In this document: positions 14,665-38,014 of the stretch, in pieces
How positions within the stretch are numbered: position 1 is the first letter of the stretch
Layout: every line of letters begins with the position of its first letter
NCBI GenBank assembly: GCA_004431415.1
Contig: QPMI01000154.1
Coordinates: 1-64,000 of the forward strand
Length of the DNA: 64,000 nt
Origin: Cyanophora paradoxa CCMP329
Taxonomy: Eukaryota; Plantae; Glaucophyta
Direction of reading: 5' to 3'
Translations under genes and position numbers: made by a program
Notes under the pieces: generated by a model
Databases searched by the model: none
Told to the model about the DNA's origin: nothing
The model's input: only the letters and a program-made list of their open reading frames with translations

Positions 14665-14797
14665 GAAGAGCCGGACCTGGATGCGCAGGAGTGTGATGAC
14701 TCAGTGAGAGGGTTTATATGTATATGTACATGTACATGCAAAAGAAGCCTAATATTTAGAAAAACCGAAATGAGAGCAGCGGATATCGATCGCGAAC

Positions 14798-15388
14798 CGC
14801 GCGGCCGCCAAACTCGGCGTTCGTGTCGTGCACGCCCGTGTCGATGACGTAGATGTCCACTCCCGTGCCGACGGCCGTGCCGCGGTCGAAGCGCCCGTCC
14901 AGCGTCATACCGCCCGTCGTTTGGTCGAGCCTGCGCAGGGCCGCCGGAACCGCGCATCAGAATTCGAACATGGACATACATATGCATATAGCAAAGCCGA
15001 TCATGATACATGCATGTACAGGGCCGACGCACCGGTCCAGGTGCCACGCGAGCGGCCCCGGGGGTACAGATGGGACCGTCCCGTTGTAACGCGGCTTCGA
15101 CAGCACAGTCTCGGGGCCCGTTCCTTGGAAGTTCATGTCGCGCGAGAGTTTGGTTATGCTGAAGTCGAGAGTGGGGTACAGTGTCTCCGTCAGAATCGCG
15201 TATCCGTACTTCTGCCCCCCCGTCTGCGCCGGCACCACGACCTGCACGCCCAGCCCGCCGTCAGCGCGGATCCGGAGTGCCCGGCCTCGAGCGCGGCTCG
15301 CGATCGCGATCCATCGCGCACGCCGTCGGGGGCGACGAACTTGACGCGATCGTGCGCCTCCAGCTCCGCCTTCACCGCCGGCGAGAGG
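14798..15388 (-). CDS. Host S8 subtilisin (proteinase K-like), internal exons 15388-15322, 15241-15033, 14930-14798
   Basis: GT/AG-spliced in-frame translation LSPAVKAELEAHDRVKFVAPDG...WHLDRLDQ...GVDIYVIDTGVHDTNAEFGGRA contains the catalytic Asp motif DTG. Confidence 0.9.
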
Positions 15389-15655
15389 CTGCAAAGGGGC
15401 GCACGCGATTGTGATCGTGAGGGCTCGGGGAAGGAGGGGGTGAGACGGGAAAAACATCGGGGGGGGGGGGGCGCAGGGGGTATGGGAGGGGGGAGGGGAG
15501 GTGGCCGGAGCAGGATCATGGTCGGGAGATATCGTGATCATAAAGCGGGGTGGTGGGGGGGGGGGGTTGGGGGGTGGGGGGGGGTGGGGGGCGGGGAGGG
15601 GGTGGGCGGGGAGGGGCGGGAGGGGAGGGGGAGGAGGGGAAGGGGTGGGAAGGGG

Positions 15656-15661
15656 GAGGGG
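15656..15661 (+). repeat. Left target-site duplication GAGGGG
   Basis: Same hexamer at 37849-37854; both directly abut the TIRs. Confidence 0.9.
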
Positions 15662-15991
15662 TGTTGTACACCCATGGACCCCGCTTACGGCCACTTCGCT
15701 TCGCTCCGGGCCGCGGTTCCATCCACATTTAGCGTCTTCCCCTCACTAGATCGATCTGATTTTGCCGTGCGTGTACCAAAATCGTTTTACACGTTTCCCT
15801 CTGCTATTACGTGCCGGAGGGCGTGTGCGTGGGTACCTTAGGGGTTGAAAAATAAAATTCGATTTAGCTTCGAGGAGGTAGCTAACGGGAGAGCCTTTGA
15901 GGCTGATTGGGAATTCACTTTAGGGTATGAGCTTAGGCATTCTAGTGTCCACTGAGAGGCCATCTTGGCTGCCGCCGCACTAGAAATTCCC
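15662..15991. repeat. Left terminal inverted repeat (330 bp)
   Basis: Reverse complement of 37535-37848 apart from a 4-nt substitution (15723-15726), a 15-nt insert (15962-15976) and one extra C. Confidence 0.95.
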
Positions 15992-16195
15992 TCACCCCGT
16001 CCGCCACTGTGCCAGATATCGTAGTACGTTTGTGCAGGAAGATGTATACGTATATAAATACGGATACGTATACGCAGATGTATAGCTACGAGAGCACACT
16101 CGAACTACTCATCGTCATCGTCCTCCTCCTCCGCTCAGTAATAACAGCTCTGAGAATTGACTTGGCATGAGGTCAGCGGTCACGTGCCGCGTGCC

Positions 16196-16425
16196 AGGAT
16201 CTTACAGACAGCTGTGAGAAGATGATTGGACATGGCTGTGAACTCAACGACTAAGAAAACGGTCGGTTCAGCTCCACTTCGCAGCCAGCTAGCGCTGCAG
16301 GCTGCAGCTACAGCATTATATTAATAGCAATAGGATCTTACAGACAGCTGTGAGAAGATGATTGGACATGGCTGTGAACTCAACGACTAAAAAAACGGTC
16401 GGTTCAGCTCCACTTCGCAGCCAGC
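16196..16425 (+). repeat. 94-bp direct repeat pair (16196-16289, 16332-16425) in the non-coding control region
   Basis: AGGATCTTACAGACAGCTG...CTTCGCAGCCAGC occurs twice with one mismatch. Confidence 0.9.
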
Positions 16426-17132
16426 GCTAGTTTTTATAGTTGTTTAGAACAAACGTTAATTTTGCGAGTGAAAATAAAAAATAAAAGATTTAGCAGTGTA
16501 AGTTTATCTCAAATTAAACTTGAACGTTTATTTTAAAACTTTTGCATCTAAATTTTAAAACTTTTTAAAACTTTTGCATCTATATATATGAAAAATTAAG
16601 TCATTAATTAGTTTTCATTAGACCGTGTTCGTGTTCGCCCCGGCTGTGAAGTGGACCCAACCGTCCTTCTTTTTTCGTCTACAGCTTTGCAGCCGCGACC
16701 AATACCGTCATTGCGTACCTCAAGAAGCTATAGAGATCTATAGAGTCTACTCGGAGTCTAGTACAGACCGTCGGACTATGAGTCTATGATACTATGATAC
16801 GTACTGTAGGGCGTACTACGGTACTACGGTAGTGTATCACTGTCTGACTGACTCTAGTACTACTCGGGACTCTAGTCGCGGGAGTCGCCGAGTCGGGACT
16901 CGGGAGACCGGGTAAATCGAAGTGCACCATGAATGCATATAACGCCAAATGTTACCCGTATGTGATATATTCCTACTGACCCGGTACGATTGCCCGATCA
17001 AATGCCCGGAGTGAAACCGGTCGGCCAGGATACTAGTCCGCTCTCTTTGGGGTACGCCGCGATTCCGCGGCCGAGAATGACTTAAAGATATCACGAATGT
17101 ATAGAATAACAAGGCACAGGAAGGCTAAACAG

Positions 17133-17660
17133 ATGGAGATCGAAATTCCCAATGGAGCGATTGCAATTCCAATTTATGGGCGAAATGGAATAGTAGCACA
17201 GTCTTTCATATCAGCAGCTGATGCTGAACTAATTAATGGGAAACGTTGGAATCTTAGAAATGGTTATGCTCAATGTCATATCTTTGTAAATGGAAAGAAA
17301 ACAAAAACAACAATGCACCAGTTGATCGTAGGATCGGTCAATCCAGGGTTCTCTATTGATCACATAAATTGTAATAAACTGGATAACAGGCGTGAGAATC
17401 TCCGCCTGGCTACAAATCAGCAGCAACAACTAAATCATGTGCTTCAAAAGAATAATTCAAGTGGATTTGTAGGAGTGAGCTATTACAAGTCTGTGAATAA
17501 ATGGCGAGCTTGTTTCCAAATAAATGGACACAACAAACACATTGGGTATTTCTCTAGTGCAGAAGAAGCCGCTAAAGCTCGTGATCTGTTTGCTATTCAA
17601 AATGTAAATGAGACAGACAGAATGTTTCTACGACTTAATTTCCCAGAATCTCTAAATTAA
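17133..17660 (+). CDS. HNH-AP2 endonuclease 1
   Basis: MHQLI...DHINCNKLDNRRENLR; NNSSGFVGVSY...KWRA...HIGYFSSAEEAAKARD. Confidence 0.9.
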   Translation: MEIEIPNGAIAIPIYGRNGIVAQSFISAADAELINGKRWNLRNGYAQCHIFVNGKKTKTTMHQLIVGSVNPGFSIDHINCNKLDNRRENLRLATNQQQQLNHVLQKNNSSGFVGVSYYKSVNKWRACFQINGHNKHIGYFSSAEEAAKARDLFAIQNVNETDRMFLRLNFPESLN

Positions 17661-18090
17661 TAGAGTTGGATAATCAAAGGACTTCTTTGGCTTGGAGCCG
17701 CTTTTTTTTCGACTTCGAACCTGCAGCCGGAGCCATCGAGCTCTATAAAAAATAAGGTCGATAGCTGGACTTCGCGAAACGTCAAGACACTTTGGCTCTA
17801 GCCAATCACAGGCCGAGTTCCGAGCAGATGCAAAGGATCCTCGAGCTGCGATTGGCTGGAAGTGAGAACTTTGTCCAGCGATCTCTTGACTTGGCGAGAG
17901 CAAGAAATCGAGCGCACTCGAGAGCTATCTCACTCTATCCTTTCCAAGCCAGAGTCACAGTGCAGGCTTGTCCTAGCCATCGGAACGTTTTTATTTACAC
18001 CCCTTAAAGAAAACGCGATGATAGTTATCAATCAGAGATTGTGCGCGCTGAATTTCGAAAAAGTTTTCTGATTGTATCATTAATCGAAAC

Positions 18091-21000
18091 ATGAGCTCCC
18101 GAGCCGTAAGAGCTAGCCTTAGAACCGAAATCAACGAGCTTGCACAGAGGCTGTATGAGCGAGGCTACATTAATGCAACGTATAGGAACTCGCTACTGCG
18201 GCCTCTTTCAAACACCAGGACCCACACTGACACACTCCGATCCTCTCTAGCATCACTGCTCAGGCTGCAGGGGACAGAAAGGCCTCAGCGTCCGCTGTAC
18301 GGGCGAGACGTTGCCGCTCATTTTGAGAGGGCGCAGGCTGCGCGAGCAGCAGCAACACAGGAGATTGATGAAGTTGCGGAAGCTATATCAGGGCTATTCC
18401 GCGAGCAGGCATCGGCCAACGTTAACGTAGTTCGCACCTATACTCACCACGAGTATCCAGGGCTGCTTTTCACGAAGGACATTATAGAGATAGAGCCGAC
18501 AGCTGATCCAGAGAGAGTGAAAGAATTGACGATAGCGTTTCTGAATGAGCTGCGAATCCCAGAGAGGATTGGAGCTGCTGTTTTAATTCGCTTTCATTTT
18601 GAGAATTTCCACATGTACCGCACGCAGCTTGCGACCATAGAGGAGGGCACGATGCAGTCACTTCTAGCAAATCTCGCGGAGAAGATGGAGAGTTGGATGC
18701 TAGCGCAGCAGCCCTACGAGGACACTGATGTCTGGCCAGTCGTGCAGATCGAGGTGCTTATCGCAGAAAACGCAGCAGGGGCTCTGGGAAATGTACCTAA
18801 GCTGCCCTTTGGAGGGAAGGCTCTAACGATGAACAAGATCTACTGTCCGATCTCTCCAGAGGACAACTGCGTGCTTGAATGCTTTGAGCATGAGAAGCTC
18901 AATCCCGGTCGCCTGAACCTTGAGAGAGTATATAAGAAGCTTCAGCATGTTGATTACAGTTCAATTCGCACACAGCTGGGGCTTCCACGGGGCCTAATTG
19001 TAGTCGATGAACCTACCATACGCAAGCTGAGCCAGCACTATAGAATCGATGCAAGCATTTTCGAGTGGGTCTCGGACCGCAGCGCGTCGAAGTTCAAGCT
19101 CCTATTTTCAACTGAATTTGGCTTTGAACGCCGAGCCCACCTTTGCGTGGTCGATGCGCACTGCTTTCTAATTAAAGATAAGAGAACGTGCGAGATGCAG
19201 AAGTGCAGAGCCTGCGGAAAGATGCAGTATGATTTGGCGACTCACAAGGAAACCTGCCGCTTCTGCTATACCTGCCGCTGCGCCTACAATCCGAAGGAGG
19301 ACCATGCAAGCAAATGCGATGAAGCAGTGAGGAACAAGAGCGTTATTGAACGCAAAATCAAGCCATGCGAGCCCGAGGAAGAGTTTACAGCCCTAAACTC
19401 AGTCATAGCGGCAGACTTTGAAACGTTTGCACCCAACCGCACGACCCACGTTCCGTACGCAGTCGATATGGACATAATAAGCAAAGGAGAGATCACGGAA
19501 ACGAAATCGTTCTGCGGCCCCGAAACTCTGGAACAGTTTATGCTCTGGCTTGACGACTGGAAAGAAAAGTCGACTCTAGTATTCTTCAATGGCAGCGGCT
19601 TCGACTTGATATTTATCTATAAGTGGCTTGTCCAGAACCGCCCAGACTGCCAGGTCAAGGTGATGCGCTCATCCGGAAAGATCAAGAGCATGGAGTGGAA
19701 GACGCTGGCTGGGGAGAGTTTAAAAGCTTTGACCCCTGTTTGCACATACAGGGCTCACTGCGGCAGGCTGGGAAGGACTACGGGTGCACCACCTTGAAAG
19801 GGGATTTTGACCACCGAAAGATAAGAGCGTGGGATGACGTTGAGATTCACAAGGAAGCCTGGAGCGAATATTTGAGAGCTGACGTTCGGTCGATGACTGA
19901 GCTGTATATTAAGTACGCTCGGACATGTTTTGATCTATTTGGGATCAATGTGAATTCGAAGCGCACCTTGACAGCATCGGCGATGGCTTTTCAGATCCAC
20001 AGGCAGCTGATGAAAACGGAAGTGCTGCTACCGAAATACAAGGAGGACCAGATTTTTCGCAAAGCGATTTACGGAGGGCGATGCCTACCATTCAAGCGGA
20101 AGTTTGTCTCGAAGGGTCCAGATGATTACTTGGTAGATCTGGATGTGGTCTCTCTCTATCCGACGGCTATGTACTTTAATTACTTTCCCACTGGTAAATT
20201 CAAATGCATCACCGATCAAGCGGAGCTAGAGCGATTCCGCAAGTTTATGCTGAGCAGGAAAATGGAACAGCTGTTTGTTGCAAAGATTAGCGCTAAAATT
20301 CCTCAGGATCTTGTGCTCTCTCCCTTCCCCGCCACGAAGCCAATCTGGGATGGTCTAACTTGAAGCCTATTGAGAAAGAAATGTACACCTCAGTCGATAT
20401 CTACCGGGCAATAGCACTGGGAGTTGAGATCACAGAGCTGCACGAGGTGTACTTGTTTGAGGGCAAGGAACGAATGTTCAAAGATTACATTGAGAAGCTG
20501 TACTGCATGAAAGCACGCTCACGAAAGGGGACCGCCCAGTATGCTACGGCGAAGATCCTCTTGAATGGGCTCTATGGAAAATTTGCTCAGCGTCCAGTAA
20601 TTGAGACAACCGAGCTGGTCTCAAACTACAGACGATTCAAGGAGATACAGCGATCATCGACGATTACAGACATTGACATAGAGAATGATACGAGAATGTA
20701 CGTCACATTTGAGATCCCTGAGTATAGGCGGGATGCCTGCGTTTCGAAGCCTTGCTTTGTTGGTGCATTTATCCTCTCCTACAGCCGCGAAATCATGGAT
20801 CGATTTTTGGTGAGGATGAACTCATATAAGGACGTAGAGGCAATGCCATACTACACAGATACAGATTCTATGATCGTGCACAGGAGGTTTGCTGAGCTTC
20901 TGAAGGACTGCATGAAGCAGCCATATTCAGTTGAGGGAATGTCAGAGGAGGAAGGGAATAGAATGATCTGCGAGAGCGAGCTGGGGAAACTAGATTATGA

Positions 21001-21463
21001 CATCCAAGGGAGAATTACTGAGGCTTACTTCATTGGCCCAAAGGTTTATTGCTGCTACTTTGTGAGGTCGAATGGGGAACCAGATCTGCATGTGCGGGCA
21101 AAGGGAATTCCGAAGAGCTGGATAGAGGAGAACTGGCTCCCGAGTGATCCAGTGGCAAAGAAGGAATCCCTTGATAACCGAATTGCTTTGGAGGCCTTCA
21201 CAAGGATGCTAGAGGAACGTTATCAGCCGCAGTGCACACTAGATTCTAAACTAGCGCGTGTTTTCAAGCCCAATGGAAAGCAACGCGATGCTGGGATCGA
21301 CTTCAGCTCTATAATTCAGATTCCATTCAGCCGAATACTCAACAAAACGGAGTATACGAAACGAAAGATTATTCCTGACGAATATTACAGCACGGTTCCC
21401 CATGAATACGTTCGAGCAACAGGCGGCAGCCAAGAAGGCAACCTTGACTTTGTCGATCTCTGA
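18091..21463 (+). CDS. polB: Protein-primed family B DNA polymerase (pPolB); frameshifts near 19710 and 20330
   Basis: Exonuclease motifs ADFET, FNGSGFD, YLRADV; polymerase motifs YGGR, DVVSLYP, KILLNGLYGKFAQ, YTDTDS, KVY, AKGI. Confidence 0.95.
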
Positions 21464-22618
21464 TGCTTACTATGATCCTGAGACAGGGCTCCAGTCAGCT
21501 GCACGGATAGCTAAGAAGCTGAAGATGCCGCTGGCAAGGGTGCAGGCAGTGCTCGCGAAGCTGTCCACAGCTCAGCGCTTTGCAAAACCGGTGAAAGAGA
21601 AGCCGTACACCAGTATCACGTATAATCACCCAGAGAAGTATTATGAAGTGGATTTGATCGATGTCAGTCCCTATGCTAGAAGCAACCGCGGAGTGCACTT
21701 CATCATGAACGCTGTGGATGTTGTAACCCGGAAAGCGTACAGCATCCCAATGAAAATAAAAGCGAGGGGACCCTGCTTTCGACACTGCGGCAGCTCATAG
21801 CAAGCTTTCCGGTGAAGCCCGATATCATTCAGACGGATCAGGAATTCAAGGCTACAGCTGCAACTATGCTAGCAGCCGAGGGGATAAAGCACAATGCTGT
21901 CGAGGCGCATCGTCCGCAGGCAAATGGAAAGGTAGAGCGCTTTAATGGTACTCTGAAGCGGATCATTGCAAGATACATGGAGGCGTACGACACCGACCGA
22001 TATATCGATAAGCTGCCATCCTTTCTGCGCAACTATAACAGCTCCGAGCATAGAGCTATTAAAACTACGCCTGATGAGGCAGCAAAGAACCCAGCACCTG
22101 TTATTGCAAGAAACGATTATCAGAGAGAGGCGTACGAGCAGCAGCACTATCTGAAAGAGGCCGAGTTCAAGGTAGGAGACTCTGTGCGCGTAAAGCTGGC
22201 GAGGAACACGTTTGATAAATCGACGAAGCCGACGTACTCAAAAGAAGTCTATCAGATTGAAGCTATAGGAGGATTTGGCCCTCTGCTCAAGTTCAAGCTT
22301 GCTGGATACGACAAGGAGGTGAGCTACCAGCAGCTGCTGAAAGTGCCAGCAGAGACAGAGCAGCGGCGGGCTGGAAGTGCTGCACAGAATGCCCTTCGCC
22401 GTCGAAAGCAGGAGCTGAATTTGATGCAAGAGAATCTGGACAAGTCAGACATCGAAAAAAATAAGAGACTTCTCCGGGTTCAAAAGCAGCTGCTTACTGC
22501 TGGAACCAAGGCGTTAAATCCAGGAGGTTCGACAGCTCGGTGGTACACGTCTTTTGAAAATGCGAAGGCCTCTTATTCTGCGCCCAGCAACACGAGGACA
22601 CTTAGACCGAGACGCTGA
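21402..22618 (+). CDS. int: Retroviral-type (rve) DDE integrase; frameshift near 21770
   Basis: EVDLID, AVDVVTRKAY, QTDQEF, NGKVERFNGTLK, YNSSEHRAIKTTP and FKVGDSVRV are typical of Polinton integrases. Confidence 0.93.
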
Positions 22619-22880
22619 TTCCAGCGGAAGCTAGGGCACTCTCAAGTACAGAGATTCGATTTATCAACCGAGTGCGATAGCGCTTGTTTGCCTCGTTGTG
22701 AGCATCTTTGTGCGAAGCCTGATATCTGCTGCTCTGCTCAATGTGTCTCTGGCGATATGCAGGGTCCTCGCTGTATTTTCTGCGGTGGTACTCTGCTTTC
22801 TTCTCCCTTCTTGCTTGAATAATCTCTGGCGTAAGAGCAATCGGTTTGCGCCCTGGTTTGCGACGCTGCGCTGACTCCAT
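22602..22880 (-). CDS. Small basic putative DNA-binding protein (AT-hook-like plus bZIP-like)
   Basis: RKPGRKP; HNEANKRYRTRLINRISVLESAL. Confidence 0.6.
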   Translation of the reverse strand: MESAQRRKPGRKPIALTPEIIQARREKKAEYHRRKYSEDPAYRQRHIEQSSRYQASHKDAHNEANKRYRTRLINRISVLESALASAGISVSV

Positions 22881-22967
22881 TTCCCTCTTTCATTTAAGGA
22901 TCTAAATTATTTAAGCGGTATAAATCGCGCTAGAATCACGAGATTTATTTCTATCTTTTAAAGCATC

Positions 22968-23303
22968 ATGGAATCGCCGCTGCGCCTGACAATACTGAGA
23001 ATTGGGAAATACAAAGGGCATACACACCTTGAAGTTGCTTTCAGAGATCCATCATATGCTCACTGGTTGTGTCGATGGGCCAGGCTAAGTGATTATGATC
23101 GCGCTCAGTTTGTCAAGGCATCTAAGCTAATCCGAGAGACAAAACCAGACATTATGTGGGGATTGTACAAAAAAGAAAGAGCTGCTAGGATTGCTCAGGC
23201 TGCAGCCCAAAATTCTACGCAGCCACAAAATGTGGAGTTATCACCAGCAGATGACCTTGATCTGGACTTATCGATATCAGAGGCGGATGGGCCGGGCTTT
23301 TGA
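22968..23303 (+). CDS. Small protein with GKYKG...DPSY..W motif (DUF3820/ExoX C-terminal-like)
   Basis: IGKYKGHTHLEVAFRDPSYAHWL. Confidence 0.65.
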   Translation: MESPLRLTILRIGKYKGHTHLEVAFRDPSYAHWLCRWARLSDYDRAQFVKASKLIRETKPDIMWGLYKKERAARIAQAAAQNSTQPQNVELSPADDLDLDLSISEADGPGF

Positions 23304-23353
23304 ACTCTGAACTAGGCTTAAAGAGATCGCAATCTCAGATTGTAAAGAAAGAC

Positions 23354-23923
23354 ATGGAAGTCACAATTCCAGAGGTTCCTGAAGGCGCTGTAGCAATCCC
23401 GCTTGGTGGAATTCGCAATCGCCGCAAAGTCATCATTGCTTATGCTCTTGTTTCACAGGAAGATGCTGATCGTGTGCTTGGATTTCGCTGGAGTTTAGAT
23501 AATGGATACGCCAAAACCATCATCAATGGTAAGAAGGTAAGAATGCATAATTTCATCAGTGGCGAGTTGGAGAATGGTTTAACTGTTGATCATATAAATC
23601 TGAACAAACTTGATAATAGACGCGAAAATTTTCGACTGGCAACAAAGCGGCAGCAGACTCTAAACCAGAATCGGCGGGTCACAAACACCAGCGGTTTCAT
23701 TGGTGTTTCATTCAATCAGCAGCTTGGTAAATGGAAAGCATACTATCAGATAAACGGACATCGGAAACACATCGGCTACTATACTACTGCTGAAGCTGCT
23801 GCTAAAGCCAGAGACACCTATGCCCTTCATCATACGTCCGCCGAGGATAAGCCATTTCTGCATCTGAATTTTACAACCGAATCCTCTGGCCACCCATCGC
23901 ATTCTTCATCTGCGACCCAGTAA
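23354..23923 (+). CDS. HNH-AP2 endonuclease 2
   Basis: DHINLNKLDNRREN; NTSGFIGV...KWKA...HIGYYTTAEAAAKARD. Confidence 0.9.
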   Translation: MEVTIPEVPEGAVAIPLGGIRNRRKVIIAYALVSQEDADRVLGFRWSLDNGYAKTIINGKKVRMHNFISGELENGLTVDHINLNKLDNRRENFRLATKRQQTLNQNRRVTNTSGFIGVSFNQQLGKWKAYYQINGHRKHIGYYTTAEAAAKARDTYALHHTSAEDKPFLHLNFTTESSGHPSHSSSATQ

Positions 23924-24503: not shown

Positions 24504-24512
24504 CTTCTGTTC

Positions 24513-25274: not shown

Positions 25275-25336
25275 CAAAAAATAGTCGGCAGACAAGCTGC
25301 CTCGGCTGCGCCCAACTACCGAGATTAGCAGATTCT

Positions 25337-26848: not shown

Positions 26849-26854
26849 GGCGAC

Positions 26855-27811: not shown

Positions 27812-27838
27812 CTTTTTTATATCAGTTAGAGAATAAAA

Positions 27839-28756: not shown

Positions 28757-30231
28757 GTAACGTCCCCGGAAATCAAGCCGGAACGCGTTCACATTTATAA
28801 ATTCGTTTGTTATAATTTGCACATAGTTATACACCTGTGGGGTGATCAAGTGCGAGTCACTATGCATTTGATCGAAGCCTGTCATAGATGGGTTTGCAGC
28901 AAGCACATTGGCTAGGACCGTATTTTCAAATAGTGACCCGTCTCGTAAATATCCTAAATTGGTCAGAATGCTGAAATTAAATAGGACTCCGGCGGCAAAG
29001 GCTGGCCCATACATAATTATTTGATGTAGCTCAAAAGGCTTAGGAAACTCGACTTTGATCCAGGGATTAGGTAAAGTGCCCCCTTGGAACCCTGTTGAGT
29101 TAGGTCGAACGTGAGAAGGTGGGTGCAATTCCTCAAAGTCGTTGCTTGTGATGTTTGCATCTGGAATTATAAACCAGTTGACATCAAATGGCGGCTCAAC
29201 TGTTAAGGTAGACGATATGATAAGTCTCTCATCGTTCAGTAGGTCGTAGTTCGCCAGTAGAAAGCTGCAGAGTGCATTTATTTTAGCATTTATTTCGGTT
29301 TGTTTCAGCCATAAATCAGTCGTGGAAATCAAATAAGAAATATTCGAAGGGGAGGCATCATCAAGCTTGCTCATAACTGCAGCTGGCAGCGGAACACTTA
29401 AACGCCAGTATCTAGTTAAATTTCTATCTGCATCAACTGGAAGCAGCTCCTGCATTTGAAAGTGCGATTCCAGCTCGCTCCCAGCCATTAGCATAGAAAT
29501 AATTGGGCTGCCTGAGAGGGATAAGATCCAGCCCAGGGCGCCCCAGCCTGACGTCTCCGCATTCGAAAAGCCTGCAGTCAGTTGCTCACTGGCTTGGACC
29601 TCACCACAGCTGATGCTCACAAGAACAATTGGATCCTCTGCATCATAAATTTTGCTGGCGTGGCTTAGCGCTGCAACTGAGGGATTATTTAAACAGGCGA
29701 TGGCCCCATCAACAAGGTTTTTGTCTCCTAGAACCTTCGGTGGAAAGAATGTTGGCGCTGCAGAAGATGCTCTAACTGCATCACGAATCAGCGTGCTCGA
29801 GTATGGCCCATCTTTGGTGAAAACTACGGGCTGCATCCGAACTGTATCAAACGCTGTAATTAATATGTCTTTGGTCGATTCTGCAATTGTGTAGTCTAGG
29901 GCAACGTCTGTGAGCACCGACTCCAGAGGGTTTCCATCATAGCGGCTTCCTGAGAGCAAGCTTGTGAGTGATCTCGGATTTGCGAATATTACAGGTAGGT
30001 TCGTTTGATATAAACTGAAGATATCACCTGCAGAATATCGATAAGCGAGAACAGAGCCTGGAGTTGATGGGATAGCCAAACCGGCCGCTATTATTGCCCT
30101 GTTGAGGTGCCTGCAAAGAAATCAAACAGCTGTGGAATTGCTTTCCCAGTAATCGCCTCGATCCGCTGTAGAATTCGGGCAATGACTATGCCACGAGCAC
30201 CTCCACCTGATAGTGAGAGAATGACCTTCAT
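28748..30231 (-). CDS. Patatin-like phospholipase with extra C-terminal beta domain (frameshift near 30098)
   Basis: LSGGGARG, FDFFAGTSTG, SSAAPTFF, LVDGA; the two copies complement each other's indels. Confidence 0.92.
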
Positions 30232-30255
30232 TTTTAAAAGGGGGCTTATATAAAA

Positions 30256-33200
30256 ATGTCCTACATCTTGAAGAAGCCAGTACCACTTCGTAAAGCTCCA
30301 GATTTTGTGGATGATCGGCATATAAATATTCGCGTATTTGGGAGTACTCTAATTGACTACAATGCTGACAAAGATATACACCAGACTGAGTTTAATCGCC
30401 CAGCTGCATTAATTCTGCGCAACGCACATGTTGGCGCCCCAGATATTGCACAGAGATTTTGTCTGGGTCCAGCTGAGAATTATGTTGCTGAAATAATCGG
30501 ATCCAGGGCGTTGCCGCGGCACCTGCGAATTGCCTCCTCAGGCACAGTTTCCAAATATGATTCTGGTAGATTAATCTTTAGGCTCCAAAATGATAGAGGG
30601 GTCCACACATCAGCTCTACGTCTAATTGATGAATCCAATGCTGTCACAAACAAGACTGCGGCTCACATTACAGGGCGAATTCTCCTTGGCGAAGAGTCGC
30701 AGACAAGCCGAAGGCAAGGAGCCACTTGTGCTCCGCACAGCGACGCTGCGCCTGCTGGAATATCAGTGCTAGCATCGCAAATCCAGCCGTTTCCCTGGGA
30801 TCTACTTTTTACAGCTGCACGAGAAGCGAATATTTTATACGGTTTTGATGTAAATCAAATCGATACTGAGCCAGCCACCAGGTTAGATATTCCTGGATGC
30901 ACCTTGGGCTCTATCCTGATTGAAGCTGACAGGCACCTGCTCCCTGCGTTGCATGACAGCTACGATCTAGGGCTCCGCACCAGGCAGTGGCGAAATATTC
31001 ATGGAACAAATATTTATCAGGATGGTAAGAAGGTTAGCACTGAAGAGGAGGTGATCAACATTTTCAACTACTACTTCGGACCTATTGTCCCTATACCACC
31101 TATACCACCTCTTCCAGGGCTACCGAAGCCGCCAACCCCGGACGGCCCAGGTCGAGAGCGAGTTGCTGATGAAACAGTTCCTTTCGGTCAACATATTGTC
31201 AGTTGGGAGCAAGTTCGCAATAAACCTATCTTCGAACCGAAAAAGCAAATAGATGAACAGTATTTACCTCCTGAAATCGATATATTAGAGCTTGAAGAAT
31301 ACCAATTTGTCCCAGATGAGGAAGAGTATTTACCTGACGGTTTCGACCCGCAAGAGTATGAATATGATCAATATGACCCCAATGAGGAAGAGTATTTACC
31401 CGATGGTTTAGATCCACAAGAGTATGAGTATGAACAGAACTATGAACCCCACGAGGATTATTTAGCAGATGGCCTCGAGCCTCCTGCTGTTGAGTATGCG
31501 CAGCCTTATGAACACCATGAGGAATTATTGCCAGATGGTTTACAACCTGAGATTTTTGAGATGTACCTTGACTGGGAGCAGATCAACAATAAACCCGCGA
31601 GATATCCACCAGAGGATCACAACCATGACTGGGATGAGATCTTAGGTAAACCTGAGAAATATCCACCTGAAGATCACAGGCATGATTGGGGCGATATTGA
31701 TGGAATACCACCTGAGTTTCCGCCGGAAGACCATTTACATATTTGGAGCGAAATACGAGAGCAGCCCACTTTTGCATCAGCAGGTAATGTTTTACTAGGA
31801 GATATTAACAATGGGGTAAGTCTCTACCAAAATATAGACACACCAGAAAGATTACAATTAAATGATTACTATGTGAATCGCAAAGGAATCGATGCAGGCA
31901 CCACAATGGAAGGCGAATTATACATTAGACCCCCTACAAGAAATGGAATATTGGGACTTGGTGGTGGTATTGAAATTAAAGACACCAAACCAGGTATCTA
32001 TCTTACCAGCTACTATGCAGATGACATCCCAATGACAGGAGGATTGATCTCTCTACCATCTGATCCAGCAAACTATGATGATAAAAACGCAGCAATCCAA
32101 ATTAATGTTACTGATGTGAGTGATTTAGATTCATCAAGACCGAAATTAATATTCAGCAGAGAGAGATTGTTACCAGATGCACTTTTGGGGAACCGAGATG
32201 ACTATAAACAATGCGAGGTTGCATGGATTAAAACGAATTATAATGGTGGAGTTGGTGAGGGAGTTTTAGAAATTAATCAGAGGGCAGCAGCAAAGAATAT
32301 TCACAATGAGACCATATCAAGAGTGGTAACAGAGGATTATCTGAGAGACAATGGAGCAACAATCATCGCAGGAATTGCTGTGGAGGGTGCTTACCTTCCT
32401 CTCACTGGTGGAACTGTCACAGGTGATGTTCATGCTCCGAATTTCCTTGTTGATACTCCAAATGCTCAGACATTTCCTGTTGTTCACCCAGGTGCTGAAT
32501 ATATATTAGATGCAAACACTCCAATTAGTAGAGTCGAATTACCAACAAATTTCACCTTTAATCTTGTGGATGTGTTCCCAAACAGCCATAATCTCATGTA
32601 TTTCTCTTCTGAGAATTACCTTTCAGGTGCATTTTCGCCCATTGAACTCTCCATACCAAAGCAAAAGGTGAGCTACAAAGAACTCACAGATGTCCCGGCA
32701 GGATTTAGTGGTAAATGGACTGATATTACGGAGAAGCCAACTTGGAGTAGTGTAGCATTCACAGGTGATTACTATGATTTATCAAGAATTCCCGATTTCA
32801 CCACTTATATACCTCGTTGGATTGATCAAAGTGTAATTATATCAGAATCTACACTCCCTTTCAATGGGACATGGGATAGACTATTTACTAAACCGAATTT
32901 GCATGCTGTGGCTACAAGTGGTGACTACAATGATTTAACTAACACCCCTACTGCACCGACCTTGCATGCTGTGGCTACAAGTGGAAACTATAATGATCTC
33001 GTTAATACACCAAACTTGCATGCTGTGGCTACAAGCGGGAACTATGACGATTTAATTAACACACCCACTTCGCCACCTACTCACAATCACAGCATAGAGT
33101 TGCTTACGAATTTCGGTAATTATGTGAATGCAAATGCATATGTGCAACAGGGGACAGCGAATGTAGTCATTCCTGCCGGAGTCTATTACAAAGGGGATTT

Positions 33201-33495
33201 TACCACAGTATCGGGAACCGTTACATTTTCTACCCCATATAATAGTGATCCAATAGTTAATGCTACTCTCGAAAATGATATTATCTTAACAAGTGTCAAT
33301 TTTACAAACAGCATATATATCTCCGCTGAATTTGTGAGTGGGAACCGTGTTGGTTTCAAAAATAAATTCACTTGGATTGCTATATTTACTTGTTACTCGG
33401 ACATCAATTATACGAATGTGCCCCAAAACGAAAGAACCCTTAAACTCCATTGGATTGCTGTCGGACCTCTCCAAAACAATAATATTCTCACGTAA
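30256..33495 (+). CDS. 1079-aa phage-tail-fibre-like protein
   Basis: P..HDSYDLG...W.NI motif, W..I..KP..YPPEDH repeats, YLPLTGGTVTG, 3x LHAVATSG.Y.DL.NTP, and a terminal WIAVG domain. Confidence 0.85.
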   Translation: MSYILKKPVPLRKAPDFVDDRHINIRVFGSTLIDYNADKDIHQTEFNRPAALILRNAHVGAPDIAQRFCLGPAENYVAEIIGSRALPRHLRIASSGTVSKYDSGRLIFRLQNDRGVHTSALRLIDESNAVTNKTAAHITGRILLGEESQTSRRQGATCAPHSDAAPAGISVLASQIQPFPWDLLFTAAREANILYGFDVNQIDTEPATRLDIPGCTLGSILIEADRHLLPALHDSYDLGLRTRQWRNIHGTNIYQDGKKVSTEEEVINIFNYYFGPIVPIPPIPPLPGLPKPPTPDGPGRERVADETVPFGQHIVSWEQVRNKPIFEPKKQIDEQYLPPEIDILELEEYQFVPDEEEYLPDGFDPQEYEYDQYDPNEEEYLPDGLDPQEYEYEQNYEPHEDYLADGLEPPAVEYAQPYEHHEELLPDGLQPEIFEMYLDWEQINNKPARYPPEDHNHDWDEILGKPEKYPPEDHRHDWGDIDGIPPEFPPEDHLHIWSEIREQPTFASAGNVLLGDINNGVSLYQNIDTPERLQLNDYYVNRKGIDAGTTMEGELYIRPPTRNGILGLGGGIEIKDTKPGIYLTSYYADDIPMTGGLISLPSDPANYDDKNAAIQINVTDVSDLDSSRPKLIFSRERLLPDALLGNRDDYKQCEVAWIKTNYNGGVGEGVLEINQRAAAKNIHNETISRVVTEDYLRDNGATIIAGIAVEGAYLPLTGGTVTGDVHAPNFLVDTPNAQTFPVVHPGAEYILDANTPISRVELPTNFTFNLVDVFPNSHNLMYFSSENYLSGAFSPIELSIPKQKVSYKELTDVPAGFSGKWTDITEKPTWSSVAFTGDYYDLSRIPDFTTYIPRWIDQSVIISESTLPFNGTWDRLFTKPNLHAVATSGDYNDLTNTPTAPTLHAVATSGNYNDLVNTPNLHAVATSGNYDDLINTPTSPPTHNHSIELLTNFGNYVNANAYVQQGTANVVIPAGVYYKGDFTTVSGTVTFSTPYNSDPIVNATLENDIILTSVNFTNSIYISAEFVSGNRVGFKNKFTWIAIFTCYSDINYTNVPQNERTLKLHWIAVGPLQNNNILT
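30693..30752 (+). repeat. 60-bp GC-rich hairpin element, in frame within the fibre gene
   Basis: AGAGTCGCAGACAAGCCGAAGGC...GCTGCGCC; also at 7518-7577 in copy 1. Confidence 0.9.
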
Positions 33496-33515
33496 TTATA
33501 AAGAGCAATTTAAAG

Positions 33516-34471
33516 ATGACAACTGTATTCACGCCTGTGTTTTCTTTGAGTGCAAGTGCTGTCCACAATGTCCAACACACTGTTTATGATTTATCTCCAA
33601 GCCACCCTTCGACTGAGACAGCGAAAACCGATTCTTTTAATGACCAAAGCATACTCAGAGTCAAAGAACTCCGAGCTGACAAGGCTGATGGAGTCGTTAA
33701 AGCTACTCAAATAATCGTATCTAATCGACCCGCAATATCTTCGGGGCTGGTCACCAAAGAAAATCTATATGAGGGTCAACAGGATTCCAAAACGGCTTTT
33801 AATCCGGCTGATAGGAATTCGGCGGCTTTTCAAGTTTACAGTGGTGGGGCATGGATTGGGACTGGACTGAGTGTGAATGGGACAGTGACAGCGACTTCTT
33901 ATGGGGCTGTGAGTGCAACCACTGGGACGTTTTCAGGTCTCTTGACAGGAAATGGTGGAGTGAAAACAACTTCTGTCGATTCAGGAGCAGATTCTGATAT
34001 AGTTTTGAAGCGAAATAATACAACGATAGCCACCATCACAACTTCTGGTCTCAGTTTGGCGGATACTAAATATTTGAAGGCTAATTTTTACCCATCATGT
34101 CGTGTTTATCATGCAACATCTACTGCTTATACAGCTGGTCAGGTGATCAAATGGGCAAACATTTACTACAATGTTGGGGATGCTATAATTCAGCTACTGG
34201 TATTTTCACATGCCCTGTGGCTGGGATGTATGTTGTATCTTTTGGTGCATATGCTGATTCATCTACCTGTGATGTTGTGTGTCGACACAACGGTTCATCT
34301 ACATTTTTAAGTCTTTTGAGTATAAAAACAACTTCAACACAAGGAGGAAGCCCTTGTGCAACATTTAAAGCCAATTCGGGCGATTACTTTGATGTTGCTG
34401 TGTCCCAAGGGACAGCATCAATTATCGCAAGTCAACAGAGTTTCTGTGTTGCATTAATTTATGCAGTATAA
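33516..34471 (+). CDS. Fibre/spike protein with C1q head (copy 2; frameshift near 34178)
   Basis: Matches the intact 10336-11292. Confidence 0.85.
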
Positions 34472-34492
34472 TAAAATGTTTTGCTATAATAA

Positions 34493-34741
34493 ATGTCGAA
34501 CATCTACCAAGTGGTTCTAACTGATACTGAAAAACTGGGAATGGAATACTGTGCCTACTCTGTTCAGGATTGGATCGATAATGCTGCTCATAATCGGGCG
34601 AGAATTGCGATTGATGAGATTGTGGACAAAGAAGTTAAATCGTGTATTGCCGCTGGAATTCCGATTCCACTCACAAAGGAAGCGATTGTAGAGCAAGCGT
34701 TTGCAAGGGGACTGTTCGAAAGGCAAGCGAAATTCCTGTGA
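34493..34741 (+). CDS. 82-aa protein resembling cyanophage fibre-associated proteins
   Basis: LTDTEK..MEY.A..VQDWIDNA..NRARIA.DEI motif, recognised from memory. Confidence 0.7.
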   Translation: MSNIYQVVLTDTEKLGMEYCAYSVQDWIDNAAHNRARIAIDEIVDKEVKSCIAAGIPIPLTKEAIVEQAFARGLFERQAKFL

Positions 34742-34886
34742 GTGCTCCTATGTAAAGAACTCGAATTCGAAGAATGAGAGATGGGTTAATTGTTATTTTT
34801 CATAGATCATGCATAAGAAAGGCATGTATCTTGCATGTCCTTCTTGAAAGTCGTTTATTTTTCTTTCCTTCTTAGTAAAAGAAGCA

Positions 34887-35732
34887 ATGGGTGAATATAA
34901 TCGAGTTCAACTTCCAATATATTCCCTTGGATCCCCTGCTATGCACTTTCGCCAGCATGAAGTAAATGATGAGGTTCGTGGATTAGAATCCACAGAGAGA
35001 CCCAATTCCAATGGTAACTCCTTTGATAAGAATTCGATTATTCGAGTTAAAGAACTTCGAGCCGACAAAAACTCAGGTGTGGTTAAAACAACTCGACTTC
35101 TTGTGACTAATGCCAACTTCTTTCAACCTACCAATGGAGGCCCTGATGCTTACAGTGTAAATCTGAAAGCTCTTGATTTCGATAAAAACACTGCTGCTGC
35201 TACAATTCGTTCAGGCGGTGCTTTTATTGGTGGAGGTTGCCGTGTATCCGGTCAACTCTCTTCATCTGTTTCGTTTAATGATGTCCCTGATACTCTCGAT
35301 CAAAATGTAGAGAATCCACAGCGTATTAGATTATATACACCTGTTGCACAGCAACCATTTGTTCAATTTTACGTAGGTTATACAGTTACACTTGCAACCT
35401 CTGAACTAATTGAAGGAACCAAAAGAGTAATGAGAGGTCTCGCCATTCCAAACGCCATGCTCTCTTTATGTAGAGCCAACAACAACCAGCCAGGTCACAG
35501 GTACTATTTCAGTGTGCAGGGATATGATCATTTCGGCACAGGCTTCTGTGTTTATAACAATAATTTCACTTACGATTTGTTTGTTACAGACATTGGCAAA
35601 TATACTATAACAATTATCGGTTTGAGAACAGATATAGCAGCTGTTTCAGTTCTCAGAGGTGTTACTCCTGATACTCTTTCAGTATCAGGGTTTTACCAGG
35701 AACCAGATGTGATCGATGACCCCACTCCCTAA
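34887..35732 (+). CDS. Fibre-family paralog 2 (281 aa)
   Basis: QH...STE...F...IRVKELRADKNSGVVKTT...GGAFIGGG module. Confidence 0.8.
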   Translation: MGEYNRVQLPIYSLGSPAMHFRQHEVNDEVRGLESTERPNSNGNSFDKNSIIRVKELRADKNSGVVKTTRLLVTNANFFQPTNGGPDAYSVNLKALDFDKNTAAATIRSGGAFIGGGCRVSGQLSSSVSFNDVPDTLDQNVENPQRIRLYTPVAQQPFVQFYVGYTVTLATSELIEGTKRVMRGLAIPNAMLSLCRANNNQPGHRYYFSVQGYDHFGTGFCVYNNNFTYDLFVTDIGKYTITIIGLRTDIAAVSVLRGVTPDTLSVSGFYQEPDVIDDPTP

Positions 35733-35756
35733 AATATATATATATGTTTAATATAA

Positions 35757-36590
35757 ATGGCTGAACCACCTCCAATTGAGCGTATTGTTACAGCACAGCT
35801 TTCATTAGCTGCACCAGCTAACCACGTTCTGCAGCATGCTACTTTCGATGATGTAGAAGGTCTGCAATCAACAGAGGTTCAACCTACGATGAACACCTTC
35901 GGTTCCACCCATAAACTGAGATTGCAGGAACTCAGGTGCGATAAAAATAATGGTATAGTTAAGACCACGAAATTACTTGTAACTAATGCGAATTTTAGTG
36001 CCCATTATGGTGATCCAGACAGTTATGGCGCCCCTCTTTCGACTTATTCTTTCGAGTCTAGGTCAGGAGCTATTAACTGCAAGACGGGGGGAGCATATAT
36101 TGGTGATGGTTTGCGGGTTGGTGGAGCTGTTGGTGCTCCTCTCTTTGTTAATGATCAACCAAACCCTATTGATCCTAACACGAGAATTCGAACCTATTTG
36201 CCAAGTATGAATGCACCATATATTATAAAGATCTTCCCAATCGTTGTTAATGAGCAGACATCAGTAGTTGATTCTCTTGTGGAAATTGGTGACCACTACA
36301 AGGTGGTTGTTGATATCCCTCCAGACGTCTACGCTGTTTGTCAAGTAGAGGGTGGAACCCCAAACATTGCTGTGGTGATTACTCCATATGATAATTTCGG
36401 GATCGCTTATCATGGTGTAAATTTCGGCCTTGAAGACTACCAGTTCTTGGTGAGAGCTACAAAATTCGGTATTTATAAATGCATTCTCTATGCAGAAAGA
36501 ACCGATGCTATCGCAAGGCAGAATACCTATGCGGAGTACTACGGCACTAATAGGTACTTCCCCATTTTCGGACAGGATACTGCCCCGTAG
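35757..36590 (+). CDS. Fibre-family paralog 3 (277 aa)
   Basis: QH...STE...F...LRLQELRCDKNNGIVKTT...GGAYIGDG module. Confidence 0.8.
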   Translation: MAEPPPIERIVTAQLSLAAPANHVLQHATFDDVEGLQSTEVQPTMNTFGSTHKLRLQELRCDKNNGIVKTTKLLVTNANFSAHYGDPDSYGAPLSTYSFESRSGAINCKTGGAYIGDGLRVGGAVGAPLFVNDQPNPIDPNTRIRTYLPSMNAPYIIKIFPIVVNEQTSVVDSLVEIGDHYKVVVDIPPDVYAVCQVEGGTPNIAVVITPYDNFGIAYHGVNFGLEDYQFLVRATKFGIYKCILYAERTDAIARQNTYAEYYGTNRYFPIFGQDTAP

Positions 36591-36625
36591 AGAATATCCC
36601 TAATTATTTGCCGAGACCTCTGATA

Positions 36626-36868
36626 ATGGCCTCATGTCTTGCAGGAGTGTTTGAGTTGCTGCGTCACTTCCATTCGCATGCTCGCCTACAGTCGCATTGT
36701 TGTACAGCGGATTTAGATCTTTCTTTTGGAGGTGATCATGACAGCAACAGCGCCAACCGTGAAGCTGAACTCGAAGCTCTTCAGCACGTAGAAGATCCAG
36801 CACCGCCCGGTGTGCACCACCAGAGGGCCGCTCCGTCAATAATGTACCATCTATATCAGGATGCTTGA
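36626..36868 (+). CDS. Small 80-aa viral protein
   Basis: MASCLAGVFELLRHF...SHCC; synonymous-biased divergence from copy 1. Confidence 0.7.
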   Translation: MASCLAGVFELLRHFHSHARLQSHCCTADLDLSFGGDHDSNSANREAELEALQHVEDPAPPGVHHQRAAPSIMYHLYQDA

Positions 36869-36963
36869 AGGCTCGCTGAGGTGGCCTCGACATCATTTTG
36901 TTTGCTTTTGAAAAAAAGAAACAGGGACAGCCAGCCGTTTCAAACACATAGATAGCTTTTTAT

Positions 36964-37466
36964 TTACGCCCTGTTTTCAATTGGGAAATTAAGACGTAGA
37001 AAAGGCCAGTCTGCCTCTGCAGTGTGCTCAAGTAGATACTGATCTCGAGCTCTGGCTGCTTCCTCCGCTGTGGAGAAGCATCCAACATCGATTGTTTTTC
37101 TATTTTTGCCAATGGTAGCAACCCATCTGCTTTTCGATCTGTTGTAACTCACTCCAAGGAATCCGCTGGTGTTATTCGAATTCTTGTCTCGATGCATTCG
37201 GTGCTGCTGTTTTGTTACGAACTTTAGATTATCTCTGCGACAATCCAGTTTATCCCCGCTGACACAGAGGATGCTATGATCTGCAGGAGCTTTCCCTTCA
37301 CCAGATCTCTAAATTTCTTATGCCATCTCTCTTCAGGGTGGAATGCTACTGGATAGCCATTCGAGTCTATGTAGAACCTCAGACCAGAGAATTTCTCCTC
37401 GTCATCTTTCGAGATTAGCACTGAGTGCACTGTGTTTGGTGTCTTCACCTGAATTGCAGAGTCCAT
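36964..37466 (-). CDS. HNH-AP2 protein 3 with degenerate nuclease site (frameshift near 37293)
   Basis: ILCVSGDKLDCRRDNLK in place of DHIN..KLDNRR.NLR; AP2 domain intact. Confidence 0.8.
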
Positions 37467-37534
37467 GTATCTTCCTTTCGATAATATAAGAGATTGTGTT
37501 CTCTTTATGTCATACACACCCCTCATATTAAACC

Positions 37535-37848
37535 GGGAATTTCTAGTGCGGCCTCTCAGTGGACACTAGAATGCCTAAGCTCATACCCTAAAGTGAATTC
37601 CCAATCAGCCTCAAAGGCTCTCCCGTTAGCTACCTCCTCGAAGCTAAATCGAATTTTATTTTTCAACCCCTAAGGTACCCACGCACACGCCCTCCGGCAC
37701 GTAATAGCAGAGGGAAACGTGTAAAACGATTTTGGTACACGCACGGCAAAATCAGATCGATCTAGTGAGGGAAGACGCTAAATACCCATGGAACCGCGGC
37801 CCGGAGCGAAGCGAAGTGGCCGTAAGCGGGGTCCATGGGTGTACAACA
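37535..37848. repeat. Right terminal inverted repeat of copy 2 (314 bp)
   Basis: Reverse complement of 15662-15991. Confidence 0.95.
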
Positions 37849-37854
37849 GAGGGG
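37849..37854 (+). repeat. Right target-site duplication GAGGGG
   Basis: Matches 15656-15661. Confidence 0.9.
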
Positions 37855-38014
37855 CGGGGGGGGCCGGGGGGGGGGGGGGGGGGTGCGGGGGTTAAGGAGG
37901 TGGAGGTAGCTATAGTGGGAGGGGTGGGGCGTTAGGGGGAGGCGGGGGGGGGTGGGGGGGGGAAGAATTGATCTAGAGATGCATACATAAGAGGACCATG
38001 AGCGCGCTGCGCAC

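What the first reader, a model, noticed from the sequence alone, without database searches (positions are those of the whole stretch)
14665..38014. Both proviruses sit in introns of the same host subtilisin gene, about 1 kb apart
Seen: removing copy 2 restores a ~433-bp GT-AG intron (38014 to 15389) that joins ...GFSAR to LSPAVK... in frame. Copy 1 lies in a later intron beginning at 14797. The flanks differ (GAGGGG vs GAAGAG), which points to separate insertions, and both targets are purine-rich GA-starting hexamers; copy 2 sits in a G-tract. Inference: local hopping or an integration hotspot, possibly intron or G-tract targeting that lets a 22-kb virus be spliced out. The alternative is simple knock-out of a secreted protease.
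Basis: partly seen in the sequence, partly recalled or inferred. Interest (0 to 1): 0.75.

Follow-up and report, generated by a model that had tools for sequence, protein, structure and literature searches.

The report
Two sibling viruses break one gene
Two nearly identical 22-kb viruses have inserted 997 bases apart in the same protease gene of a freshwater alga, one in an intron and the other likely inside an exon, so the gene is likely simply knocked out rather than rescued by splicing, and only the closeness of the two insertions is unusual.

Summary
The window holds two copies of a Polinton-like virus (pPolB, rve integrase, A32 ATPase, double-jelly-roll capsid, 300-bp TIRs) 997 bp apart in one I9+S8 subtilisin gene of the glaucophyte Cyanophora paradoxa. 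Copy 1 is likely not. The intron starting at 14797 has a CAG acceptor at 14677, and the next 12 bases encode V-R-L-F, which matches what paralogs carry there (VRLY, VPLF, then DVD). So copy 1 sits 12 bp into an exon, upstream of the catalytic His and Ser. One intronic plus one exonic hit is what random insertion gives in this genome, so intron targeting and splice-out are unsupported. Copy 1's junction is in 7 of 7 DNA runs laid, with no empty allele listed. The copies differ by a mostly synonymous patch, so they are likely separate insertions. A same-subfamily pair within 1 kb has about 0.5-2% chance per genome, a modest hint of local insertion bias. These viruses are already catalogued in this alga. 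The scan earlier noted a nested sibling pair elsewhere in this genome (unchecked).

The parts
1..14664 (.). Provirus copy 1, right-hand 14.7 kb (continues left of the window); same orientation as copy 2
   Evidence: 99.2-99.6% match to 23076-37848; 18 substitutions and 121 gap columns
14365..14664 (.). Right terminal inverted repeat of copy 1 (300 bp, ends ...CA)
14665..14670 (+). Flank GAAGAG of copy 1, presumed right copy of its 6-bp target duplication; reads Leu-Phe codons on the gene strand
   Evidence: left copy outside the window, not seen
14665..14676 (-). Stub of host exon 8 (V-R-L-F), cut by copy 1
   Evidence: CAG acceptor at 14677; paralog match
14677..14797 (-). Host intron 7, 121 bp, GT..CAG, branch-like CTCAC 32 nt upstream of the end
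   Evidence: inferred from sequence and homology, no RNA
14798..14930 (-). Host exon 7, start of the S8 domain with the catalytic Asp motif (YVIDTG)
   Evidence: 74-77% identity to S8 paralogs P0002/P0003
15033..15241 (-). Host exon 6
   Evidence: same exon in gene model P0001
15322..15388 (-). Host exon 5 (end of I9 propeptide)
15389..38014 (-). Host intron 4: 433 bp when empty, 22,626 bp with copy 2
15656..15661 (+). Left copy of the target duplication GAGGGG of copy 2
15662..37848 (.). Provirus copy 2, complete, 22,187 bp, about 40-50% GC against 58-82% in the host to the right
15662..15961 (.). Left TIR of copy 2 (4-bp difference from both right TIRs at TIR positions 62-65)
18091..21463 (+). 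[quoted passage not shown]
   Evidence: PF03175 E 1.3e-18 on two of the three ORFs
21402..22618 (+). rve (retroviral-type) integrase, in two ORFs
   Evidence: PF13683 E 4.4e-8 on the second ORF; no Pfam hit on the first
24513..25274 (-). A32-like packaging ATPase
   Evidence: PF04665 E 1e-9
25337..26724 (-). Major capsid protein, double jelly roll, one frameshift near the N-terminus
   Evidence: atlas 0.97 to Capsid_N/NCLDV clusters; 62% to P0010; Foldseek E 3.2e-9 to PBCV-1 capsid on a pLDDT 47.6 model
26855..28756 (.). Two divergent ORFs, possible minor capsid proteins (label recalled from gene position, no hit)
   Evidence: no Pfam hit
28748..30079 (-). Patatin-like phospholipase
   Evidence: PF01734 E 5e-11
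36674..36818 (+). Patch where copies 1 and 2 carry different alleles (13489-13633 in copy 1)
   Evidence: 7 of 10 changed codons synonymous in an 80-aa ORF
37550..37848 (.). Right TIR of copy 2
37849..37854 (+). Right copy of the target duplication GAGGGG of copy 2
38015..38297 (-). Host exon 4 (I9 propeptide)
   Evidence: PF05922 E 0.0054, below cut-off on this exon alone; 54% over 297 aa to P0016, which has I9 and S8 above cut-off
38372..38796 (-). Host exons 1-3 (38796-38682, a 17-bp exon 38596-38580, 38537-38372); hydrophobic N-terminus that looks like a signal peptide (by eye)
   Evidence: only open solution found, 334 codons without a stop up to copy 1; the micro-exon is inferred

Best explanation
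Two copies of one Polinton-like virus subfamily were likely inserted by their rve integrase in two separate events, 997 bp apart, into one member of a large subtilisin family: copy 2 sits in intron 4, copy 1 likely cuts exon 8, so the gene is likely dead and is not predicted to be rescued by splicing. Shown: element anatomy, copy 2's perfect 6-bp duplication, colinear unique host sequence between the copies, presence of copy 1's junction in independent DNA runs. Inferred from homology: the acceptor at 14677 and hence the exonic position, upstream of the catalytic His and Ser. Inferred, weakly: the closeness reflects a local insertion bias, that is, a second genome of the same virus lineage entered next to the first (open or freshly processed chromatin, now free of selection because at least 12 S8 paralogs remain). 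The order of the two events is unknown. The second copy is probably not a plain copy of the first, since they differ in a mostly synonymous patch.
For: Exonic copy 1: CAG at 14677 gives V-R-L-F. Of 10 motif stretches in 9 paralogs, 9 read V/I-x-L/F-Y/H followed by DVDS, DVDG or DIDS, three of them VRLY; one (P0007) does not. P0016 reads GRVVPLF-DVDA. 1 of 1185 null tetrapeptides scores as high. Separate insertions: different flanks, 6-bp duplication at copy 2, no shared non-repetitive 16-mer between spacer and right flank, 7 of 10 changed codons synonymous in the patch. Real locus: an unbroken contig 14637-14901 in 7 of 7 DNA runs laid, no loose end on the host side of 14665 listed. A mixed loose end in 2 of these 7 runs (X16, X6; agreement 0.68) fits copy 2's right junction with one extra G (hand reading; arithmetic, rule checked on a second mixed row). 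The species is reported as likely haploid (PMC6704402), so both copies should be in cis. Non-random closeness: 0.02-0.07% for one subfamily of 5-9 copies, 0.5-2% over all subfamilies. Tandem and nested integration is reported for related viruses.
Against: No RNA evidence for any splice site here. Copy 1's left junction and the 3' half of the gene were not seen; none of 12 S8 models found carries the same contig label as P0001. The junction contig has only 28 letters on the virus side, under the tool's 31-letter rule for bridging, and some loose-end rows were not shown (4, 1). Copy 2's left junction lies in a skipped G-tract and was not seen. With 366 capsid genes in 100 Mb, about 1.3 pairs of any kind within 1 kb are expected by chance, and this pair was picked after the fact. 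The allele patch argues against a direct parent-to-daughter hop. Depth ratios are only a rough guide to copy number.
Confidence: 0.55

Rival explanations
1. Same anatomy (one exonic, one intronic insertion, gene dead), but the closeness is chance plus tolerance: insertions land at random, and a dispensable or already broken gene keeps whatever lands in it.
For: 366 capsid genes in this genome give about 1.3 expected pairs within 1 kb. One intron plus one exon has 16% probability under random insertion against 4% for two introns. No sequence-specific integration was found for EMALEs (PMC8547959). The copies carry different alleles. The case was selected from a very large scan.
Against: The two are near-identical siblings from a subfamily of roughly 5-9 copies; a same-subfamily pair within 1 kb has 0.5-2% chance per genome before allowing for tolerance.
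Confidence: 0.33
2. The tandem arrangement is an assembly or cell-population merge: the two insertions exist but on different molecules, or one copy was duplicated by the assembler.
For: The assembly has many homopolymer indels (74 indel events). Copy 2's left junction was not seen, and no record spans both junctions.
Against: Copy 1's junction is unbranched in 7 of 7 DNA runs, so any chromosome with copy 2 should also carry copy 1. Copy 2 has a perfect duplication, and its right junction is likely present in 2 of 7 runs. The copies differ by synonymous changes.
Confidence: 0.07
3. One reading: the virus targets introns or G-tracts and is spliced out with them, so the host gene survives.
For: Copy 2 is intronic, in a G-tract, and leaves both splice sites intact.
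Against: Copy 1 is likely exonic and not in a G-tract. Read-through runs into the TIR and stops. The filled intron is 263 times the mean intron length and holds 60 branch-plus-YAG candidates and 10 AATAAA motifs on the sense strand. In Cafeteria 13 exonic against 2 intronic sites were found.
Confidence: 0.03
4. One insertion followed by a local duplication or unequal recombination produced the second copy.
For: Same orientation and near identity of the copies.
Against: No host sequence is duplicated beyond the 6-bp site; the exons run colinearly through the locus; the flanking hexamers differ.
Confidence: 0.02

Closest known systems
Endogenous Polinton-like viruses of Cyanophora paradoxa (Bellas et al. 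2023, PMC10120064; supplement rows seen)
   Same: 366 capsid genes are listed for this species. The capsid in Table S2 row 107 (456 aa, HHpred 98.5% to an iridovirus MCP) matches P0010 by label, length and visible sequence, and P0010 is 62% identical to this element's capsid. PMC12220804 Table S6 lists rve integrase, pPolB and phospholipase counts for the glaucophyte set.
   Different: In the passages and rows I saw, host insertion sites, exon/intron position and pairs in one gene are not described.
EMALEs, endogenous mavirus-like virophages of Cafeteria burkhardae (Hackl et al. 2021, PMC8547959; passages seen)
   Same: rve integrase, TIRs, short target duplications, insertion into host genes (13 exonic, 2 intronic sites), no sequence specificity; the methods mention a second EMALE within 10 kb.
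   Different: EMALEs are virophages with a maturation protease and mostly 3-5 bp duplications; this element has a PLV-type capsid, a 6-bp duplication and no protease found.
Tandem and nested virophages/PLVs (Halocafeteria preprint 10.64898/2026.07.28.741278, passages and Discussion seen; Barth et al. preprint 10.64898/2026.10.13.758929, passages seen)
   Same: Related viruses pile up next to or inside each other and 'land where they are tolerated'.
   Different: Those clusters are subtelomeric or inside viral DNA; here two siblings sit in an ordinary host gene with 997 bp of host exons between them.
Local hopping of cut-and-paste DNA transposons such as Ac/Ds, P and Sleeping Beauty (recalled, not from a call)
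   Same: A second insertion close to an existing copy.
   Different: Hopping there moves the donor itself; here both copies persist, the element is a virus, and the copies carry different alleles. A search for 'local hopping' with Maverick and Polinton showed the phrase in 1 of the 15 papers listed, one on Tc1/mariner.

Membership tests
Polinton-like virus with pPolB and rve integrase | Terminal inverted repeats, 14-40 kb length | tested here: met
   300-bp TIRs, 22,187 bp
Polinton-like virus with pPolB and rve integrase | 5-6 bp target site duplication | tested here: met
   GAGGGG at both ends of copy 2; copy 1's left end is outside the window
Polinton-like virus with pPolB and rve integrase | Double-jelly-roll major capsid protein | tested here: met
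   the model itself is low-confidence (pLDDT 47.6)
Polinton-like virus with pPolB and rve integrase | A32-like packaging ATPase | tested here: met
   PF04665
Polinton-like virus with pPolB and rve integrase | pPolB and rve integrase | tested here: met
   PF03175 and PF13683; both split by frameshifts in this assembly
Polinton-like virus with pPolB and rve integrase | Minor capsid protein | tested here: inconclusive
   two candidate ORFs without a Pfam hit; not folded
Group 1 Maverick-Polinton or virophage | Capsid maturation cysteine protease | tested here: inconclusive
   no protease hit among 25 element ORFs scanned with Pfam; several ORFs stay unannotated
S8 subtilase with I9 propeptide (host gene) | I9 propeptide and catalytic Asp motif | tested here: met
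   weak I9 hit on one exon; 54% over 297 aa to P0016 with I9 and S8 above cut-off
S8 subtilase with I9 propeptide (host gene) | Catalytic His and Ser motifs | not testable with these tools
   would lie left of copy 1; no genome held; not identified among 12 models
Intron-targeting or self-excising (introner-like) element | Insertions lie in introns | tested here: not met
   1 of 2 intronic; copy 1 likely exonic
Intron-targeting or self-excising (introner-like) element | Element ends supply GT and AG on the host gene's sense strand | tested here: not met
   GT at base 2, but copy 2's far end reads ..CA|C on the sense strand; copy 1's far end is predicted to read the same
Intron-targeting or self-excising (introner-like) element | Spliced mRNA across the element | not testable with these tools
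   no RNA holder listed

The most novel reading that the evidence does not exclude
rve-integrase Polinton-like viruses of protists re-integrate locally: a sibling genome enters within about a kilobase of a resident provirus, perhaps helped by a weak preference for targets that start with GA, so proviruses pile up and can recombine with neighbours. This would be a first trace of local hopping in this virus class.
Probability: 0.35. Interest if true: 0.5.

Novelty: new member of a known kind. Interest (0 to 1): 0.25.

Why it matters
As it stands, this is a clean example of an active Polinton-like virus mutagenising its algal host: a redundant, likely secreted protease gene hit twice. It corrects the idea that these 22-kb proviruses hide in introns. 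If the closeness proves systematic, it would show how sibling proviruses come to lie side by side, which has been proposed as the substrate for module swapping in these viruses, and this genome (hundreds of copies, likely haploid) would be a good place to measure it.

Tried and rejected
Whole genome: none held, so no genome-wide site table and no left end of copy 1. RNA: no RNA holder listed. One run guessed to be RNA (X24) gave only a 48-base piece of a paralog; this says nothing about expression. Search for the gene's 3' half: 7 proteins and 12 proteins, none with P0001's contig label. P0005 lacks the Asp and His parts and could be an orphan 3' half, but this is untested. Other acceptors for the intron at 14797: TAG 14749 runs into a stop after 15 codons, GAG 14700 and read-through score poorly. 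The public model P0001 reads through the donor and takes its first exon from inside copy 2, so it is not evidence. The tetrapeptide score had an off-by-one error and was redone. GA-start rule: besides the two window sites, two other junctions appeared as loose ends, one continuing GACGCC and one ACCACC. Their end (left or right) is unknown, and GA-sharing junctions are laid more easily, so no motif is claimed. Splice rescue through the element's own ends: rejected for this gene, because both targets begin with C on the sense strand. Related free viruses: none in viral contigs; the terminal 21-mer was absent from metagenome contigs. Literature: searches listed no paper on this locus, on splicing across a PLV, or on local hopping of PLVs. 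Subscription journals are mostly not covered, preprint supplements were closed, and Bellas file 2 was cut when stored. Scan notes: nothing near this place, nothing for the word search.
Full report
What is in the window. Bases 1-14664 and 15662-37848 are low-GC blocks (about 40-50%) in a host of 58-82% GC. They are two copies of one element in the same orientation, 99.2-99.6% alike over the shared 14.7 kb. Copy 2 is complete: 22,187 bp, 300-bp TIRs ending TG..CA, and GAGGGG on both sides. A Pfam scan of 25 element ORFs gave pPolB, an rve integrase core, an A32 ATPase, patatin, C1q and three HNH/AP2-type genes; 14 ORFs had no hit. The 411-residue frame at 25340-26572 is the major capsid: atlas score 0.97 to Capsid_N/NCLDV clusters, 62% identity to P0010, and Foldseek E 3.2e-9 to the PBCV-1 capsid on a low-confidence model. 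Source labels place P0001-P0003 and P0010 in Cyanophora paradoxa. Bellas et al. list 366 capsid genes for this species, and their Table S2 holds a capsid matching P0010. The element is therefore a Polinton-like virus of a group already catalogued in this alga. Frameshifts in pPolB, integrase and capsid are probably read errors: 54 of 74 indel events between the copies are homopolymer slips. This was not tested further.

The host gene. On the minus strand, eight exons give 334 open codons: a hydrophobic N-terminus, an I9 propeptide and the start of an S8 domain. The model aligns to paralog P0016 at 54% over 297 residues, across both insertion sites, and P0016 has I9 and S8 above Pfam cut-off. 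The family is large: 12 other models were found.

Copy 1 is likely not in an intron. The donor at 14797 is followed by three AGs before the element. The CAG at 14677 closes a 121-bp intron with a branch-like motif 32 nt upstream, like the gene's other introns of 74-102 bp. It yields V-R-L-F and then the TIR. In 9 of 10 motif stretches from 9 paralogs the residues at that place are V/I-x-L/F-Y/H followed by DVDS, DVDG or DIDS; three read VRLY, and P0007 differs. P0016, missed by that pattern, reads VPLF-DVDA. P0005 and P0017 lack the stretch. VRLF scores 9.25 against 8 paralog stretches, 1 of 1185 host tetrapeptides after a YAG reaches that score, and the alternatives score 0.12 or less. Copy 1 thus likely sits 12 bp into exon 8, its flank GAAGAG being the Leu-Phe codons. 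In paralogs the catalytic His lies about 35-45 residues after the Asp and the Ser far beyond, so both would be cut off. Read-through stops inside the TIR. No RNA data confirm this; it rests on sequence and homology.

Is the arrangement real? Twenty runs hold some of the stretch, 16 of them half or more; I laid 7 of those 16 DNA runs and one guessed RNA run. All 7 have an unbroken contig 14637-14901 joining the TIR end to the host, at a depth like neighbouring single-copy pieces, with no listed loose end for an empty allele. Limits: only 28 letters lie on the virus side, under the tool's 31-letter rule, and five loose-end rows were not shown. In X16 and X6 a loose end behind 14666 is a mix of two contigs (agreement 0.68). 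Subtracting the single-contig version seen in X1, X3 and X8 leaves a G-run pattern that fits copy 2's right flank with one extra G. The arithmetic gives 0.683, and the same rule reproduces a second mixed row (0.867 against 0.87). That is a hand inference. Copy 2's left junction lies in a skipped repeat and was not seen. The species is reported as likely haploid (PMC6704402, passages), so a fixed copy 1 implies cis. The copies are also not one element assembled twice: after realignment they differ by 18 substitutions, most in a 145-bp patch where 7 of 10 changed codons are synonymous. No host sequence is duplicated beyond the hexamer.

Targeting and splicing. Published figures (25,831 genes, 9.2 introns of mean 86 bp, genes on 60.3% of 100 Mb) give about 20% intron and 40% exon. 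Two random hits fall as one intron plus one exon 16% of the time and as two introns 4%. The filled intron 4 is 263 times the mean length and holds 60 branch-plus-YAG candidates on the sense strand. Even if it were spliced, the exon hit would end the protein. In Cafeteria, rve-type virophages hit 13 exons and 2 introns with no sequence specificity (PMC8547959, passages). The GA start of both targets is real, but two other junctions seen continue GACGCC and ACCACC with unknown orientation, which is too little for a motif.

The closeness. Depth ratios suggest roughly 5-9 copies of this subfamily (the tool warns that depth is not copy number). Two of 5-9 within 1 kb of each other in 100 Mb has 0.02-0.07% chance; over all subfamilies of that size, 0.5-2%; for any two of 366 capsid loci about 1.3 pairs are expected. 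So the pair is unusual for siblings, but not beyond what a large scan can turn up, and a dead gene tolerates more hits. Tandem and nested integration is reported in Halocafeteria and in anemones (preprint passages and Discussion), and an unchecked scan note describes a nested sibling pair in this genome. I put local insertion bias at 0.55 and chance with tolerance at 0.33. The allele patch makes a plain donor-to-daughter hop less likely than entry of a second genome of the same lineage.

Verdict. This is a new example of known behaviour, gene disruption by an integrating PLV, with a modest hint of local clustering that a genome-wide table could settle. Papers seen: PMC12220804 (passages, section 10, supplement hits), PMC8547959 (passages), PMC10120064 (passages, supplement rows), PMC6704402 (passages), and bioRxiv 2026.07.28.741278 (passages, Discussion), 2026.10.13.758929 and 2026.06.19.733378 (passages). 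Preprint supplements were closed and may list such sites.

Noticed in passing
window 14600-14656, 15670-15727, 37785-37840: The TIR tip is predicted to fold into a hairpin (-16.6 kcal/mol) that seems to exist in two alleles with a compensatory 4-bp change on both stem arms: copy 2's left TIR has the variant inner arm, and runs X2, X5 and X6 show the matching variant outer arm as a loose end behind 14652. This suggests selection on the hairpin.
   Followed up: partly
window 15662-15664 and 37846-37849: The element starts T-GT and ends CA, so a target beginning with G creates GT..CAG and would add six bases in frame if spliced. That holds on the + strand for both copies here, opposite to the host gene, so it cannot rescue this gene; copies elsewhere in the other orientation could be checked.
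   Followed up: partly
window 16196-16425: 94-bp direct duplication near copy 2's left end; the sequence just inside the left TIR has about half the depth of that inside the right TIR, so the subfamily has left-end variants.
   Followed up: no
window 7518-7583, 26781-26848, 30693-30758, 24599-24626: A 52-68 bp motif occurs in inverted orientation at two places of the element; a similar-looking 28-bp stretch is present in copy 2 but missing in copy 1.
   Followed up: no
window 17097-17660, 23354-23923, 36964-37526: Three HNH/AP2-type endonuclease genes in one 22-kb virus.
   Followed up: no
window 30256-36590: Long fibre-like ORFs with short internal repeats and a C1q domain; the allele patch lies just downstream.
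   Followed up: no
window 43419-44891, 49102-51299, 53285-54481, 58560-60080: Ordinary host neighbours: F-box protein, CDT1, parkin co-regulated protein, and an AAA_16 protein that looks like an adenylate/guanylate cyclase fusion (Pfam hits; the cyclase label is recalled).
   Followed up: partly
P0001; window 16233 onwards on the minus strand: The public gene model for this locus takes its first exon from inside the provirus and reads through the 14797 donor: an annotation artefact caused by the insertions.
   Followed up: yes
P0005: An S8 model that lacks the Asp and His parts and starts just after them; could be the detached 3' half of this or another interrupted paralog.
   Followed up: no
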